Below are positions 12,834 through 18,688 of a stretch of DNA of 31,958 nt, in pieces. A program made the position numbers and the translations under genes. The notes under the pieces are model-generated. The model was not told the DNA's origin. It saw nothing but the letters and a program-made list of their open reading frames with translations, and ran no database searches. The first letter of the stretch is position 1; each line of letters opens with the position of its first letter. The stretch spans positions 1-31,958 of the forward strand of contig CAJONF010000263.1 in the NCBI GenBank assembly GCA_905236665.1, written 5' to 3'. The DNA is from an uncultured Selenomonadaceae bacterium. Lineage in GTDB: Bacteria > Bacillota > Negativicutes > Selenomonadales > Selenomonadaceae.

Positions 12834-13496
12834 TTGCCGATATACAACGCGCAGATTTTGAAGATTGACGCGGCGGAAGTTCGTCGATATGCGGGCTTGA
12901 GGAAGGCGCAAAATTTCGGCGAAAAAAATATCCTTGACGTTTGCCAAGAGGCTTTGCTACTTTTGGAAGTGCGCGGTGCGTGGGAAATTTACAATTATAA
13001 AAATCAAACTGTGGCGAGTGAGCCGCCCTTTACAATCTTGAGCAATTCGGTTATAAAACATTTAGACGGTTGCGAAAAAGTTATCTGTATGGCTACAACA
13101 GTCGGCGCGGCGATTGAGCAAGAAATTACAAAAAAATTTGAGCGCGGGGATTATTTAGCGTCGGTGCTGTTGGACGCGGCGGCAACTGCGGCGGTTGAAC
13201 AGGCGGCTGATTTAATGGAAAAAAATTTCGCGGCGCAATTTTCTAAAGACGGTTACAAAATGCGCTGGCGATTCAGCCCAGGTTACGGCGATTGGAATTT
13301 GACGGAGCAAGAGAAATTTTTTAAAATCTGCGGCGCGGAAAAAATCGGTTTGCATTTGACTTCAGCGATGATGTTGGAGCCGAGAAAATCTGTCACGGCG
13401 ATTATCGGTCTGGAAAAAATTTCCACACAAAAAAATTTTTCCATTCAAAAATCTTGCGCGAATTGTAATAAGCTTGATTGCTCAATGAGGAATTAA
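12834..13496 (+). CDS. Stand-alone B12-dependent methionine synthase activation-domain protein
   Basis: MATTVG, LLDAAATAAVEQ, RFSPGYGDW, MLEPRKSVTAIIG and a C-terminal CxxCxxxxC. TTG start. Confidence 0.8.
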   Translation: MPIYNAQILKIDAAEVRRYAGLRKAQNFGEKNILDVCQEALLLLEVRGAWEIYNYKNQTVASEPPFTILSNSVIKHLDGCEKVICMATTVGAAIEQEITKKFERGDYLASVLLDAAATAAVEQAADLMEKNFAAQFSKDGYKMRWRFSPGYGDWNLTEQEKFFKICGAEKIGLHLTSAMMLEPRKSVTAIIGLEKISTQKNFSIQKSCANCNKLDCSMRN

Positions 13497-14420: not shown

Positions 14421-14690
14421 GTGAAAAAAATTATCATGCTTAAAATCGAAGGCTGTCCATACTGCGCGGCGGCTTTTCGGGCGATTGACGAGCTTAAAAA
14501 AAATTACGCGGCAGAAATTGAAATCATCGACGAAAATTTTCAGCCGCAACTCGCAGAAAAGTTCACCGACTATTATTATGTGCCGACCATGTATGTTGAC
14601 GGTAAAAAAATTTATGAAGCGCACCCCGGCGAAACTTACGACGAATGTTTTGCTAACGTGAAAAAAGTTTTTGAGGTGGCAAATGAGTAA
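14421..14690 (+). CDS. Glutaredoxin/thioredoxin-like protein
   Basis: CPYC active site and YYVPTMYVDG cis-Pro loop. GGAGGAG SD. Confidence 0.82.
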   Translation: MKKIIMLKIEGCPYCAAAFRAIDELKKNYAAEIEIIDENFQPQLAEKFTDYYYVPTMYVDGKKIYEAHPGETYDECFANVKKVFEVANE

Positions 14691-15369
14691 AGCAGTAGTC
14701 CTTTCAAGCGGCGGGCTGGATTCGACGACGTGTCTTGCCATTGCCGTGAAAAAATTCGGCGCGGAAAATGTTTCTGCCCTTTCAATTTTTTACGGTCAAC
14801 GCCATTCAAAAGAACTTGGGGCGGCACGAAACGTTGCAAAATTTTACGACGTGGCTCATTACGAATTGGACGCCGCAGAAATTTTCCGCAATTCCAATTC
14901 AACTTTGCTTGACACTTCGACTGAACCTTTAGAGAAAATTTCCTACGCCGAGCAAATAGAAAAGAACAATTCGCCGCGTATTTCTACTTACGTTCCCTTC
15001 CGCAATGGGCTGATGATTTCCATGGCGACGAGCTTTGCAGATGGGCTTTATGATGAGCCGATTGAACTTTATGTTGGCGTGCACTCCGATGATTTTGCCG
15101 GCAATGCTTATGCCGATTGCAGTGCAAAATTTATCGCGGCGATGAACGCGGCAGTTAGAATCGGCACGTATGAAAAAATTCACATGGTCGCGCCCTTCCT
15201 TTGTCAAAGCAAAGCCGATGTCGTGAAAATTGGCTTGGAAATCGGCGCACCGTATCATTTGACGTGGAGCTGTTACGAAGGTAGCGATAAACCTTGTGGA
15301 AAATGTGCTACGTGTCTTGACCGCGCCCGCGCCTTTGAACTTAACGGCGTCAAAGATCCGGCTTTGTGA
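14683..15369 (+). CDS. queC: 7-cyano-7-deazaguanine synthase
   Basis: SSGGLDSTT, YGQRH, TYVPFRN, AYADC and TWSCY..CGKCATC motifs. Confidence 0.96.
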   Translation: MSKAVVLSSGGLDSTTCLAIAVKKFGAENVSALSIFYGQRHSKELGAARNVAKFYDVAHYELDAAEIFRNSNSTLLDTSTEPLEKISYAEQIEKNNSPRISTYVPFRNGLMISMATSFADGLYDEPIELYVGVHSDDFAGNAYADCSAKFIAAMNAAVRIGTYEKIHMVAPFLCQSKADVVKIGLEIGAPYHLTWSCYEGSDKPCGKCATCLDRARAFELNGVKDPAL

Positions 15370-15400
15370 AAAACCGCCTGAAAATTTTTTGAACAACATC

Positions 15401-15429
15401 TTGCAAATGAAAAACTTTTCTGCTACATT
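15401..15429 (+). promoter_or_regulatory. Promoter for an orphan transcript
   Basis: TTGCAA, 17-nt spacer, TG-n-TACATT. Confidence 0.5.
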
Positions 15430-15435
15430 TAGGCG

Positions 15436-15694
15436 GCGGGAAGGACACAGATATTTTCGATAGAAAAATTAATCTGGTTCTAATAATCCTCTAATCATTC
15501 TAAAATACAATTCCCGTTAATCCCATTAAACAAAATACACGCCACAGTGCCGAAGGGCTGTCCCCGCAGCTTGGTCGGCGGCAAATAACCTGCGGTGCCC
15601 ACCAAGCACACGCAAAGAGAAGGTGAGATATGAAGAAATAAAACAACTATTCTACAGCAAACAGAAACGGAGGCGATGGAGCCTCCGTTTTTTT
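15436..15694 (+). ncRNA. Candidate structured non-coding RNA of unknown class
   Basis: Bounded by a promoter and a strong terminator. GC-rich core (15541-15612) with several pairing options including a pseudoknot. The only SD-led ORF is MKK*. Confidence 0.4.
15665..15694 (+). terminator. Intrinsic terminator
   Basis: AAACGGAGGC-gatgga-GCCTCCGTTT followed by TTTT. Confidence 0.8.
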
Positions 15695-15695
15695 G

Positions 15696-15724
15696 TTGCT
15701 ATAAATTTTTTTTTGACTTATAAT
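15696..15724 (+). promoter_or_regulatory. Promoter for the glycosyltransferase operon
   Basis: TTGCTA, 17-nt spacer, TATAAT. Confidence 0.55.
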
Positions 15725-15743
15725 CGGCGGCGAGGTGATAAAA

Positions 15744-16859
15744 ATGCGCGGTGCTTATCTTATTTCTTCTAACGGCAACCCGTCAATCGGCGGCGGTTGG
15801 AACAATCAGCAACTTTTGAAAGACTGCGGACTTGTGCCGTATCTTTTACATAAAAACCACGGTTTTCATTCGGTTATGGTTGGCATAAAGGTTGACGCAG
15901 ATTATCCTTATCTGGAATATGTTCGCGGGCTGGAGCTGGATTTTTTGCCAGAAGACACGCTTAAAGCGCGGATTAATTATATCGATTCACACGCTGGCTA
16001 TATTGACTTGCTGATTTTATACGGGGCTTATCCCGCTTACATTCCGCTAGTTGAACATTATAAAAAAATTCGTCCCGACGGAAAAATTTATCTCGCCACG
16101 GATATGAACATTGCTTGGGGTGATAGAATTCCGCACGAAAATCCCGCTTATAAAAATTTTCTTCATTCTTGCGACGTTATAGCCGCCAGTTGCCGTGCTA
16201 CGCAAAAATATTTATCGGCGAAATGGAGCGTACCCGTCGATTTGATTCGCAACGGCTGGTATAATTTTTTTAAGGTTAAGTTCGACGACGTTAGCAAGGA
16301 AAATATTATTTTAACTGTCGGGCGAATCGGTTCCAATCAAAAACAAAATCATATTCTGCTTGAGGCGTTCGCTAAGGTTGCAAAAGATTTGCCGAATTGG
16401 AAAGTTCGATTGGTCGGCGGCATTGAAGAAAATTTTAAACCGTACATTGAAAAATTTTTTTCAGCACATCCAGACCTGCGCGAACGTGTGATTTTTACGG
16501 GACTGATTGAAAATAAATCCGCGCTCATGGAAGAATACAAGCGGGCTAAAATTTTTTGTCTAAGTTCAAATTTCGAGGGTGCACCGAACGTAGCGGCTGA
16601 AGCTCTTTTCGGCGGCGATTTTGTAATTTGTTCTGATGTTGACGCGGCGGGCGATATGACTGATGATGAAAACTGCGGAAAAATTTTTCCCATTGGCAAT
16701 GTCGATGCGCTGGCTAAAATTTTTTTGAACGTTTGCCGCGATGAAAAATTAATTTCCAACGGCGGACGAAATGCCCGCGATTATGCCCGTGAACAATTCG
16801 ACGCAAATAAAATCGTGGCGCGGCTGAATTATCTGCTGTATGGAGGTGACGCAAATTGA
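15744..16859 (+). CDS. Glycosyltransferase family 4 (GT-B fold)
   Basis: ILTVGRIG..QKQ..LLEAF and FCLSSNFEGAPNVAAEA motifs. GAGGTG SD. Confidence 0.85.
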   Translation: MRGAYLISSNGNPSIGGGWNNQQLLKDCGLVPYLLHKNHGFHSVMVGIKVDADYPYLEYVRGLELDFLPEDTLKARINYIDSHAGYIDLLILYGAYPAYIPLVEHYKKIRPDGKIYLATDMNIAWGDRIPHENPAYKNFLHSCDVIAASCRATQKYLSAKWSVPVDLIRNGWYNFFKVKFDDVSKENIILTVGRIGSNQKQNHILLEAFAKVAKDLPNWKVRLVGGIEENFKPYIEKFFSAHPDLRERVIFTGLIENKSALMEEYKRAKIFCLSSNFEGAPNVAAEALFGGDFVICSDVDAAGDMTDDENCGKIFPIGNVDALAKIFLNVCRDEKLISNGGRNARDYAREQFDANKIVARLNYLLYGGDAN

Positions 16860-17821
16860 GCAAAATAAATTATTCCGGAGGAAAATATTTTTTGGAGGAC
16901 GGCGGGCAATTTTCCTTGCTCGTGGATATTCGCACACCTTCCGAAAATAGAAGCCGCGTTCATTCTCACCAGTTTAAAGAAAAAGGCGGCGTAGAATTTC
17001 CGCTGACAGAGATAGTCAAAGAGGCAACGAAAAATATTTTTAAGAAAACGCCCGAATCACTCGCCCACGTCGTGACATACTTTAGAATCGTCGCCCGCCT
17101 ATTAAAAAAGCCGCAAATACATTCCATGCTGTGCATAGGTAATTGGTCGCCACTTGATGAATCGCTCGCAGAAATTTTGCCGCAATTTAATCCAGTCAAT
17201 AAATTTTACTGCCTATCAGAAATGCGCCCACTAGGAAAATTTCCGTCGGTTAATTTTATTTTTGCGGAGGGCGGAGAATTTCCCTTGCCAGAAAATAAAT
17301 TCGACACGATAATTTTATCTGAACGGCAAATCCCGTCGTTGGAAATGTTGTTGGCAGTCAAAGACTATGGAAAAATTTATTTCACCGCGCTGAATTCTAG
17401 CATAGAAGAATCGCTCCAATCCCTGTCAAAAATTTTTCCGCTGACAGCAGAACTTTCACTGTTAGAGTTAGAAATTTTGCCGCACTTCCGACAAGAAATT
17501 AAACGCCATACGCCAGCGGGAATTTTAGAAAATAAGAAATCCGAAATAATTCAAGTCGTCTCAACATTGCCGGACGTGATAGAAAAATTCCGCACATTGC
17601 CGCGTAAAAAAAGAACCGCCGTATTGGACGAATGCATTTCCGAAATCAGTCGCGCAGAAAAAATTTTGGCAGAAATTTTTCCCGAACTCCACAGCGACAC
17701 GATTAAATTTAATTTCAATGTCATGAAAGAAACTTTGATTGATTTGCGGCTCGACAACGGCTCACTTTCCCGCGTGGACAGGCAATATAAAATTCTTACA
17801 CAAGATTTTGAACAAGCATGA
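16856..17821 (+). CDS. Hypothetical protein coupled to the GT4 gene
   Basis: 321-aa ORF overlapping the GT4 stop (TTGA). Weak methyltransferase-like segment (FPLPENKFDTII) and a helical C-terminus. Confidence 0.65.
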   Translation: MSKINYSGGKYFLEDGGQFSLLVDIRTPSENRSRVHSHQFKEKGGVEFPLTEIVKEATKNIFKKTPESLAHVVTYFRIVARLLKKPQIHSMLCIGNWSPLDESLAEILPQFNPVNKFYCLSEMRPLGKFPSVNFIFAEGGEFPLPENKFDTIILSERQIPSLEMLLAVKDYGKIYFTALNSSIEESLQSLSKIFPLTAELSLLELEILPHFRQEIKRHTPAGILENKKSEIIQVVSTLPDVIEKFRTLPRKKRTAVLDECISEISRAEKILAEIFPELHSDTIKFNFNVMKETLIDLRLDNGSLSRVDRQYKILTQDFEQA

Positions 17822-17833
17822 GGAGGAATATTT

Positions 17834-18688
17834 TTGAAGTTTAGAAAGAAAATCGCTATGCTTATGATTTTGGCGATGATTCAAATTCCCTTTCCAACTT
17901 ACGCGGCAGAAGAAGATAAAGAACTTTCACTGATTGCCGCTGAACAGGAACGCGAAGAAGAACAGCTCGGCGAAATAAATCCCGCGCTCACCGAAAATAT
18001 TTCAACCGATCCGACTAAGGAGACCGATAAAGACAAAAAGGAACGTAAGAAAAAACTTAAACAGACGCGTAAAGAGAAGGAAAAAGAAAATCAGCGCAAA
18101 CTCAAGGAAGCAGCCGATAAAAAATCTGATGAAAAAAAGACTAAAGACATCAAACCGCGTGAGGAAACAGTTATCATTGATGCGGACGAACCGGAAATAA
18201 AACCTGTGCCGCAGATAACTGAACCTGAACCGCCGCAAACAGTTGAAATTGTCAGCACACTGGATCAAAAAATTTCATACGCGAATTTTACTGAAGTCGC
18301 CAGTGCCGTGAAATTTATTCCGCTGTATATGCCGCGCAAATCCGGTTACGAAATCACTTCGCTTTATGCGGGGCAGGGCATTGCTGAAGTTCGTTACGGG
18401 CGCAGGTGGGAGCCGACTGTCTCCTTGACAGTTAGAACTTATCGGCGGGCGGACGGTGAGGAATTGCAGGACATCAGCGGCGTTCAGGGCGTAAAATGGC
18501 GCGTGGACACTACGACTGGCACGACTATTTACATTGCTAAAATTTCTGAAACGCAACACGTCGCGGCATGGGCTGTTGGTCACTACACTTTTTCCGCGCA
18601 GTCAGAAAATTTATCGTTCGCCGGTTTTCATTCGCTTGTTGCCGATGAACTTGTTGAGTTGTCGACGCATTATTATTTAGATTTGTAA
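17834..18688 (+). CDS. Secreted hypothetical protein with a Lys/Glu-rich linker and a compact C-terminal domain
   Basis: Signal peptide (..TYA-AEE), highly charged residues about 30-130, globular C-terminus. GAGGAGG SD. Confidence 0.75.
   Translation: MKFRKKIAMLMILAMIQIPFPTYAAEEDKELSLIAAEQEREEEQLGEINPALTENISTDPTKETDKDKKERKKKLKQTRKEKEKENQRKLKEAADKKSDEKKTKDIKPREETVIIDADEPEIKPVPQITEPEPPQTVEIVSTLDQKISYANFTEVASAVKFIPLYMPRKSGYEITSLYAGQGIAEVRYGRRWEPTVSLTVRTYRRADGEELQDISGVQGVKWRVDTTTGTTIYIAKISETQHVAAWAVGHYTFSAQSENLSFAGFHSLVADELVELSTHYYLDL

What the first reader, a model, noticed from the sequence alone, without database searches (positions are those of the whole stretch)
15401..15694. Stand-alone promoter-to-terminator transcript of about 260 nt with a pseudoknot-forming core
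Seen: own promoter (15401-15429), strong terminator (15665-15694), and a separate promoter for the next gene, so this unit encodes no normal protein. Pairings: CGGGAA 15437-42 / TTCCCG 15511-16; CAGAT 15448-52 / ATCTG 15472-76 enclosing TTTTC/GAAAA; GGGC 15555-58 / GCCC 15597-600; CCGCAG 15564-69 / CTGCGG 15590-95; and CTTGGT 15570-75 / ACCAAG 15601-06, which crosses the previous helix (pseudoknot). A mutually exclusive fold (GCCGA/TCGGC plus GCTG/CAGC, then GGC..ACC/GGT-GCC) resembles the P2-P3 part of SAM-clan riboswitches but lacks P1. Downstream are an SD (AAGGTGAG) and ATG AAG AAA TAA. Removing one A would give a 30-aa ORF (MKNKTTILQQTETEAMEPPFF..) running through the terminator. Inference: a novel sRNA, ribozyme or riboswitch-like RNA, or the stranded leader of a lost mobile-element gene.
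Basis: partly seen in the sequence, partly recalled or inferred. Interest (0 to 1): 0.7.

Follow-up and report, generated by a model that had tools for sequence, protein, structure and literature searches.

The report
Abundant genus-specific small RNA gene
This is a real, highly expressed, roughly 260-nt non-coding RNA gene with its own promoter and terminator. It is found only in about half the species of one uncultured rumen Selenomonadaceae genus.

Summary
The unit at 15401-15694 is real. It has a conserved A/T tract, a -35 box and an extended -10 box, then a transcript of about 260 nt ending in a strong intrinsic terminator.

- **Distribution:** one copy in 35 of 76 genomes of one uncultured rumen Selenomonadaceae genus. 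Three divergent relatives occur in two further genomes. I found no convincing copy in 39 other genera of the family.
- **Independence:** the flanking genes differ between species. The RNA usually lies divergent from a malic-enzyme gene; here it lies after queC. It is therefore an independent gene, not a leader.
- **Expression:** in sheep-gut metatranscriptome contigs its summed depth is 100-fold or more above both flanking genes.
- **Known families:** Rfam gives no match.
- **Structure:** covariation supports a 5' stem with a variable hairpin and two conserved G-poor unpaired stretches carrying CCUCU and UCCC motifs. It also supports a junction of two hairpins with invariant loops, UCCCC and CCACCAA.
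- **Mini-ORF:** an invariant Shine-Dalgarno plus AUG starts a tiny ORF (three codons or fewer in 22 of 31 copies). No peptide is conserved.

My best reading is an Hfq-type, trans-acting base-pairing sRNA with C-rich seeds, in the manner of RoxS or LhrC (confidence about 0.45). No targets are known. An unchecked scan note on other DNA (e1-4107660) describes a similar SD-AUG mini-ORF.

The parts
15378..15394 (+). A/T tract (UP-element-like) at about -58 to -42 of the sRNA promoter
   Evidence: The GAAAAATTTTT core is conserved in all homologous loci. In this genome, similarity to the other species begins exactly here.
15401..15429 (+). Promoter: -35 TTGCAA (15401-06), 17-nt spacer, extended -10 TGC-TACATT (15421-29)
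   Evidence: CTTGCAAA and TTTCTGCTACAGT are nearly invariant across species. The match to consensus is too weak for the generic scan.
15436..15694 (+). Inferred transcript, about 259 nt; the start is inferred from the -10 box
   Evidence: A covariance-model hit spans 15433-15695. RNA contigs cover 15446 to about 15657, and an adapter abuts directly at 15446. Many G-U pairs fix the strand.
15436..15517 (+). 5' domain. P1 (15436-42 with 15511-17) encloses a variable hairpin (about 15442-15481) and a conserved unpaired stretch (15482-15510) that contains AAUCCUCU.
   Evidence: P1 is 84% paired, and 4 of its 7 pairs show changes on both sides. The P1-plus-hairpin fold recurs in single-sequence folds of most of the 31 copies.
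15518..15548 (+). Second conserved unpaired stretch: UAAUCCCAUUAAA, an A-rich run, and the invariant CGCCACAG (15540-47)
   Evidence: These columns are invariant or nearly so. The span 15478-15548 has 3 G against 19 C in 71 nt. CGCCACA is also kept in the three divergent relatives.
15549..15579 (+). Hairpin A: outer GCCGA/UCGGC, inner GGGCUGU/GCAGCUU, invariant C-rich loop (UCCCC, 15561-65)
   Evidence: One inner pair appears as CG 13, AU 12, UA 5. An outer pair appears as CG 28, UA 2. Pairing is 93-99%.
15591..15614 (+). Hairpin B: UGC/GCA plus GGUGC/GCAC, invariant loop CCACCAA (15599-15605)
   Evidence: One pair appears as AU 15, GC 9, GU 6; another as CG 12, UA 10, AU 3. The divergent relatives keep the same loop on unrelated stems.
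15540..15625 (+). Possible junction-closing helix, CGCC (15540-43) with GGUG (15622-25), which would occlude part of the SD
   Evidence: RNAalifold predicts it. All four pairs are invariant in 31 of 31 copies, so covariation neither supports nor refutes it. It is not kept in the divergent relatives.
15619..15641 (+). Shine-Dalgarno GAAGGUGAG (15619-27) and mini-ORF AUG AAG AAA UAA (15630-41)
   Evidence: GGUGA(G/U)A(U/C)AUG is found in 31 of 31 canonical copies. The ORF has 3 codons in 18 of 31, three or fewer in 22 of 31, 5-15 in 6, and no stop in 3. UAA, UGA and UAG alternate at the stop position. No peptide is conserved.
15663..15694 (+). Intrinsic terminator: GC-rich stem, 6-nt loop, run of seven U
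   Evidence: Found by the scan. The stem is kept with G-C/G-U changes while the loop and the spacer before it vary freely.

Best explanation
SHOWN. This is a stand-alone non-coding RNA gene of about 260 nt. A conserved A/T tract, -35 box and extended -10 promoter drive it, and an intrinsic terminator ends it. It occurs once per genome in about half the species of one uncultured rumen Selenomonadaceae genus. It keeps its identity while both flanks change, and it is far more abundant in sheep-gut RNA libraries than its neighbouring genes.

The RNA folds into two parts. The 5' part is a stem with a variable hairpin that leaves about 60 nt of conserved, G-poor sequence unpaired. That sequence carries CCUCU and two UCCC motifs. 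The second part is a junction of two hairpins whose loops, UCCCC and CCACCAA, never change.

INFERRED. It acts in trans as a base-pairing regulatory sRNA, probably with Hfq. Its exposed C-rich motifs would pair with G-rich ribosome-binding regions of mRNAs; the commonest SD pentamers called in this genome are GGAGG, AGGAG, GAGGU and GGUGA. This is the mode of action recalled for RoxS/RsaE and the LhrC sRNAs.

The invariant SD plus AUG inside the RNA most likely binds ribosomes. An early stop codon is favoured because it releases them before they reach the terminator and the 3' end. What that binding achieves (stability, or control of the fold) is open. The targets are unknown.
For: Independent gene:
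- 35 strong covariance-model hits, one per genome, in 76 genomes of the genus.
- Upstream is a divergent malic-enzyme gene in most loci (23 cluster together; 2 more are inferred from antisense shadow ORFs) but queC here. There are five or more different downstream genes, some convergent.
- Genomes without the RNA have no such unit upstream of the malic-enzyme gene.

Promoter and terminator are conserved.

Expression: summed contig depth over 15441-15657 reaches about 2600, 627 and 183 in RNA runs from two studies. Depth is 1-20 over queC and 0-3 over the downstream gene. The contigs are short and end in adapters.

Non-coding: the longest ORFs use different frames in different species, and the mini-ORF peptide varies.

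Structure: 91.5% paired, 13 pairs with double changes, 0 of 500 shuffles reach this; slid controls give 31-47% paired.

The exposed conserved motifs are invariant. The unpaired stretch has 3 G and 19 C in 71 nt.

Hfq is encoded in all five genomes checked. The RNA has a U-tailed terminator.

The organism's SDs are GGAGG/GAGGU/GGUGA-rich. This list is biased because I chose start codons by SD strength.
Against: - No target was found. There is no extended complementarity anywhere in the genome.
- No target k-mer is over-represented.
- The real unpaired segments pair with translation-initiation regions no better than shuffled versions of themselves (for example -8.99 against -8.58 +/- 0.43 kcal/mol).
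- About 100 nt of near-invariant sequence is more than most seed-based sRNAs need. That much conservation would also fit a protein-binding platform.
- The internal SD/AUG is not explained by a pure base-pairing model.
- The RNA evidence comes from unstranded assembled contigs. Depths sum related species, and the runs were chosen because they hold this stretch.
Confidence: 0.45

Rival explanations
1. Protein-binding (sponge or scaffold) RNA. The repeated CCAC-type motifs (GCCACA, UCACCAA or UCCCC, CCACCAA), shown in or near hairpin loops, and the long G-poor unpaired tract bind and titrate an RNA-binding protein. The logic is that of CsrB with CsrA or 6S with RNA polymerase, but with a different, unknown partner such as a KH-domain protein, Hfq itself, or Rho, which prefers C-rich, G-poor unstructured RNA.
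For: - Abundance is very high relative to the neighbouring genes.
- About 100 nt are nearly invariant, including the loops.
- The three divergent relatives keep CGCCACA and two CACCAA loops on otherwise unrelated stems.
- The unpaired tract has 3 G and 19 C in 71 nt.
- No mRNA target signal was found.
Against: - No known protein is recalled to recognise CACCAA loops.
- The CsrA motif GGA does not occur repeatedly, although CsrA is encoded.
- A separate 6S RNA exists.
- The motifs occur only two or three times, not in the many copies usual for sponges.
Confidence: 0.17
2. Ribosome-engaging RNA. The conserved strong SD, the AUG and the 1-3-codon minigene are the functional core. The RNA would load ribosomes, either to stabilise itself, to sequester 30S subunits, or to release short peptidyl-tRNAs as the lambda bar minigenes do. 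The rest of the RNA would tune access to the SD, for example through the CGCC/GGUG helix.
For: - SD plus AUG is invariant in 31 of 31 canonical copies, with good spacing.
- An in-frame stop within three codons occurs in 22 of 31 copies, and UAA, UGA and UAG interchange there.
- A predicted invariant helix would occlude GGUG of the SD.
- One divergent relative also has an SD, an AUG, three more codons and a UAA.
Against: - Nine of 31 copies have longer ORFs or none that stops, so minigene length is not fixed.
- Two of the three divergent relatives lack a well-spaced SD-AUG.
- This model does not explain the 200 nt of conserved upstream sequence.
- There are no translation data.
Confidence: 0.15
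3. Cis-acting leader, riboswitch or leader-peptide attenuator that controls read-through into the downstream gene.
For: A three-way-junction-like domain is followed by an SD, a tiny ORF and a terminator. That layout resembles an aptamer with an expression platform. The downstream gene runs in the same direction in about two thirds of loci.
Against: - Downstream genes are unrelated: a GT1 glycosyltransferase, IspG, unknown proteins and a response regulator. They are convergent in about a third of loci.
- The next gene here has its own near-consensus promoter.
- No riboswitch model matches.
- RNA depth falls about 100-fold or more at the terminator.
Confidence: 0.04
4. Decayed or unrecognised small-protein or toxin gene: the RNA would be the mRNA of a micro-protein on either strand.
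For: ORFs of 30-60 codons can be drawn on the minus strand in most copies. In three species the plus-strand ORF runs 21 codons to the 3' end.
Against: - The frame of the longest ORF changes between species, and 1-2-nt indels lie inside conserved blocks.
- The plus-strand peptides share nothing except translation of the terminator stem.
- Compensatory changes and G-U pairs point to RNA-level selection on the + strand.
Confidence: 0.03

Closest known systems
RoxS / RsaE (Bacillales sRNA, Rfam RF01820)
   Same: It is a stand-alone sRNA with its own promoter and terminator. It has C-rich motifs exposed in loops and unpaired stretches. From memory, those motifs pair with G-rich SD regions of metabolic mRNAs, and RoxS responds to malate. 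Here the gene usually sits next to a malic-enzyme gene.
   Different: No Rfam model, this one included, matches the stretch even at E up to 10. This RNA is more than twice as long (about 260 nt against about 100). It has a CCACCAA loop, an internal SD-AUG mini-ORF, and a different phylogenetic range (one Negativicutes genus). The link to malate is only gene adjacency.
LhrC family of Listeria (redundant UCCC seeds)
   Same: Several copies of a UCCC/CU-rich motif sit in loops and single strands of one sRNA. From memory, these act as redundant seeds against ribosome-binding sites.
   Different: There is no sequence or model similarity. LhrC RNAs are about 110 nt and occur as multicopy siblings, whereas this RNA is single-copy in the canonical form. 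No targets were found here.
Lambda bar-type minigenes and very short leader ORFs
   Same: A strong SD and AUG are followed by one to three codons and a stop.
   Different: Those are parts of mRNAs or phage transcripts, and their effect is drop-off of peptidyl-tRNA or antibiotic sensing. Here the mini-ORF is embedded at the 3' end of a conserved non-coding RNA, its codons vary, and no downstream gene depends on it.
ldh2 motif (riboswitch candidate of Negativicutes; PMC8632094)
   Same: It occurs in Negativicutes, has a three-stem junction with conserved nucleotides, and has an RBS that may be occluded.
   Different: That motif sits almost always directly upstream of Ldh_2-family genes. This RNA has no consistent downstream gene and ends in a terminator. 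I had no ldh2 model, so I could not compare sequences.

Membership tests
Any Rfam 15 family | Covariance-model score at or above the family's gathering threshold | tested here: not met
   There are 0 matches in the whole window at gathering thresholds. At E up to 10 the hits are far below the gathering scores, and nearly all lie over the terminator or promoter rather than the conserved core.
   No SAM or preQ1 model appears even at E up to 10. queC is the neighbour only in this genome, and it lies upstream of the RNA, not downstream.
Trans-encoded, Hfq-type base-pairing sRNA (functional class) | Own promoter and intrinsic terminator with a U-tail; independent of the neighbouring genes | tested here: met
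Trans-encoded, Hfq-type base-pairing sRNA (functional class) | Expressed as a discrete abundant RNA | tested here: met
   RNA contig depth is 100-fold or more above both flanks in two studies. The contigs are unstranded, so the strand is inferred from G-U pairs and the promoter.
Trans-encoded, Hfq-type base-pairing sRNA (functional class) | Conserved unpaired seed that pairs with mRNA targets | tested here: inconclusive
   Conserved unpaired C-rich stretches exist. A crude duplex test against 1290 initiation regions did no better than shuffled segments, and no long complementarity exists.
Trans-encoded, Hfq-type base-pairing sRNA (functional class) | The chaperone gene is present in the host | tested here: met
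   Hfq (PF17209) scores above the cut-off in all five genomes checked, including this one.
6S RNA | Match to RF00013; it would be the only such RNA in the genome | tested here: not met
   A separate 6S gene is found in genomes with the element (G016, G077) and without it (G003, G007). The fold here is not a long bubble-containing hairpin.
T-box leader | Match to RF00230; located upstream of aminoacyl-tRNA synthetase or amino-acid genes | tested here: not met
   No T-box hit in this region on either strand, and none in the whole genome, which is 78% complete.
Leader-peptide or ribosome-mediated attenuator | A consistent regulated gene directly downstream in the same direction | tested here: not met
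   The downstream genes are unrelated and often convergent.
RoxS/RsaE | Match to RF01820; about 100 nt with CCCC motifs | tested here: not met
   There is no model match. Only the general feature of C-rich exposed motifs is shared.

The most novel reading that the evidence does not exclude
This abundant RNA acts on translation initiation itself rather than on a few mRNAs. It combines a near-perfect SD-AUG minigene with several look-alikes of the 16S rRNA 3' tail (AUCACC/CCACC loops, CCUCU, UCCC). It could therefore sequester 30S subunits through its SD. It could also compete with the ribosome for the GGAGGUGA-type SDs of many mRNAs. Either way it would be a global, possibly growth-phase-dependent, brake on initiation.
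Probability: 0.08. Interest if true: 0.75.

Novelty: new member of a known kind. Interest (0 to 1): 0.36.

Why it matters
No sRNA biology turned up for Selenomonadaceae in my literature searches, although they are major lactate- and succinate-handling bacteria of the rumen. This adds a well-delimited, highly expressed sRNA family with a covariation-supported structure, so it can be annotated in dozens of rumen genomes. Its usual position next to the malic-enzyme gene gives a concrete lead to carbon and redox regulation. The conserved SD-AUG mini-ORF inside a non-coding RNA is an unusual detail and worth a direct test. Otherwise it is one more lineage-specific sRNA and not a new kind of element.

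Tried and rejected
the preferred fold with a pseudoknot did no better than shuffles or slid controls.
- **Known RNA families:** Rfam gave nothing, including SAM, preQ1 and T-box models.
- **T-box mimicry:** I considered that the CCACCAA loops mimic tRNA 3' ends and bind T-box bulges. This genome has no T-box leader.
- **6S RNA:** a separate 6S gene exists.
- **Neighbouring malic-enzyme mRNA as target:** there is a 9-bp interrupted match to the SD region in some species, but the sRNA side is not conserved.
- **Long antisense targets:** none in the genome.
- **Over-represented target 7-mers:** none.
- **Duplex energies against 1290 initiation regions:** no better than shuffled segments, so the test is uninformative.
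- **Sibling hairpins with YCACCAA loops in this genome:** 11 against 1 for the control motif, but they look like coding sequence and my scan missed the true hairpin, so I drew no conclusion.
- **ss1 CCUCU pairing with the SD GGAGG/GAAGG:** judged by eye on the alignment, there is no consistent covariation.
- **Collection-wide pattern scans:**
It gave only six true copies, all Selenomonadaceae or Selenomonadales rumen MAGs.
  - The metagenome-contig scan for the double-CACCAA form returned 120 chance hits. None had the hairpins.
- **Weak covariance-model hits in other genera:** these were tRNA or terminator artefacts.
- **Literature:** I found nothing on sRNAs of Selenomonas or Negativicutes that matches.

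Full report
**What is in the sequence**

The stretch lies between queC (14671-15369, PF06508) and a GT1 glycosyltransferase gene (start near 15745).

- The terminator is strong: 15663-15692, 12 pairs, then a run of T.
- The next gene has its own near-consensus promoter, TTGCTA-17-TATAAT at 15696-15724.
- The unit's own promoter (TTGCAA 15401-06, extended -10 TGC-TACATT 15421-29) is too weak for the generic scan. It is nearly invariant in relatives, as is an A/T tract at 15378-94.
- The + strand folds better than shuffles (z = -3.9) than the - strand does (z = -2.1).
- Rfam 15 gives no match at gathering thresholds. At E up to 10 it gives only hits far below the gathering scores, nearly all over the terminator or promoter.

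**Who has it**

The window is contig C263 of a 1.64-Mb, 78%-complete MAG. Named homologous contigs are 'Selenomonadaceae bacterium' MAGs from sheep, goat and buffalo gut.

- A covariance model built from 15 copies finds 35 strong hits, one per genome (E 1e-36 to 1e-59), in the 76 genomes held for the genus. Among high-quality genomes, 10 of 19 have a match at E <= 0.001. That count includes the two genomes that carry only divergent relatives.
- Genomes that are 99-100% complete can lack it. In those, the region upstream of the malic-enzyme gene holds no comparable unit.
- Three divergent relatives exist: two in G014 and one in G089. They keep CGCCACA, a first hairpin whose loop is UCACCAA instead of UCCCC, a second hairpin with loop CCACCAA on an unrelated stem, a GGAGG, and a terminator.
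- A specific pattern recovers exactly the same 37 genomes in the genus, with 1 control hit. Outside the genus it returns only 14 chance-like hits in 186 genomes, and the control pattern gives about as many.
- I found no copy in 39 other genera of the family. The metagenome scan added nothing.

**It is an independent gene**

- In most loci the upstream neighbour is a divergently transcribed NAD-malic-enzyme gene about 165 nt away. Twenty-three cluster together, and two more are inferred from antisense shadow ORFs.
- In this genome that gene lies on another contig with a different upstream region. The RNA unit, beginning exactly at its A/T tract, follows queC instead.
- Downstream genes fall into at least five unrelated groups, and about a third are convergent.

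This rules out a leader or riboswitch for a particular gene.

**It is expressed**

I laid four sheep-gut metatranscriptome runs from two studies on 15100-16000.

| Region | Summed contig depth |
|---|---|
| RNA, 15441-15657 | peaks near 2600, 627, 18 and 183 in the four runs |
| queC | 1-20 |
| glycosyltransferase gene | 0-3 |

The contigs are short (about 80-240 nt). Sequencing adapters abut directly at 15446 and 13-24 nt beyond 15633-15643, which is just before the terminator stem.

Three caveats apply. These are unstranded assembled contigs. The depths sum related species. The runs were found with this very stretch. The contrast with both flanks still argues for a discrete abundant RNA.

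**It does not encode a protein**

The longest ORFs are mostly on the minus strand and use different frames in different species. Indels of 1-2 nt lie inside conserved blocks.

**Structure**

I used a structure-blind MAFFT alignment of 31 distinct copies.

*The two-hairpin model*
- It is 91.5% paired.
- It has 13 pairs with changes on both sides.
- 0 of 500 shuffles reach this.
- Slid controls fall to 31-47% paired.

Its elements are:
- P1 (15436-42 with 15511-17).
- Hairpin A (15549-79; one inner pair appears as CG 13, AU 12, UA 5).
- Hairpin B (15591-15614; pairs appear as AU 15/GC 9/GU 6 and CG 12/UA 10/AU 3).
- The terminator.

- It is 74% paired overall.
- It is indistinguishable from shuffles.
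- Its three core helices are 60-78% paired.

A possible junction-closing helix, CGCC/GGUG, would cover part of the SD. It is invariant and therefore cannot be tested by covariation.

Single-sequence folds show that most copies stack a variable hairpin on P1. This leaves about 30 nt unpaired before P1's 3' strand and about 30 nt after it. The two stretches carry AAUCCUCU, UUCCCG and AAUCCCA plus an A-rich run, and they have 3 G against 19 C in 71 nt. The loops UCCCC and CCACCAA are invariant.

**The mini-ORF**

All 31 canonical copies have GGUGA(G/U)A(U/C)AUG.

| ORF length | Copies (of 31) |
|---|---|
| 3 codons | 18 |
| three or fewer | 22 |
| 5-15 codons | 6 |
| no stop before the 3' end | 3 |

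UAA, UGA and UAG interchange at the common stop position, and the amino acids vary. I infer that the SD-AUG is under selection and that an early stop is favoured because it avoids non-stop translation into the terminator. Only one of the three divergent relatives keeps this arrangement.

**Mechanism**

The anatomy is that of a trans-acting sRNA: its own promoter, a U-tailed terminator, conserved exposed C-rich motifs, Hfq in the genome, and GGAGG/GAGGU/GGUGA-rich ribosome-binding sites. It resembles what I recall of RoxS/RsaE and LhrC.

I could not find targets. There is no long complementarity, no enriched target words, and no better pairing with initiation regions than shuffled segments give. 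The base-pairing model is therefore my best guess at about 0.45.

Two rivals stay open: a protein-binding RNA (0.17) and a ribosome-engaging RNA centred on the minigene (0.15). Cis-regulation and a hidden protein gene are largely excluded.

**Comparison and novelty**

It fails membership of every described family I could test: all Rfam models, 6S, T-box, and the SAM and preQ1 riboswitches. The ldh2 motif of Negativicutes has a different genomic context.

It is a new family within the familiar class of lineage-specific bacterial sRNAs. Its interest is moderate to low. The points in its favour are good delimitation, strong expression, the malic-enzyme neighbourhood and the odd conserved mini-ORF.

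An earlier unchecked note from this scan (e1-4107660) describes the same GGGGAGGTGAGAT-ATG start of a mini-ORF running into a terminator in another genome. That may be a further copy.

Noticed in passing
G000 contig C117:1-1338 (not in the window) compared with window 15370-15400: In most carrier species the RNA gene lies about 165 nt from a divergent malic-enzyme gene. In this genome that gene sits on another contig with an unrelated upstream sequence. The RNA unit, starting exactly at its A/T tract, follows queC. This is a lineage-specific rearrangement whose breakpoint is at the promoter.
   Followed up: partly
L174:1501-1753, L175:1501-1759, L180:195-463 (genomes G089 and G014): These are divergent relatives of the RNA in which both hairpin loops read (U/C)CACCAA, and CGCCACA may form a third small loop. 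G014 carries two such copies and no canonical one. The family may have sub-types.
   Followed up: partly
window 16856-17821 and 17834-18688: Two ORFs (321 and 284 aa) downstream of the glycosyltransferase gene have no Pfam match at E <= 0.001.
   Followed up: no
window 12834-13496: A 220-aa ORF matches only the activation domain of B12-dependent methionine synthase (PF02965). It stands alone and is followed by a methionine aminopeptidase with a SEC-C motif.
   Followed up: no
L145:1833-2765 and seven related loci: In 8 of 31 carrier loci the gene downstream of the RNA is a conserved protein of 310-347 aa with no Pfam match.
   Followed up: no
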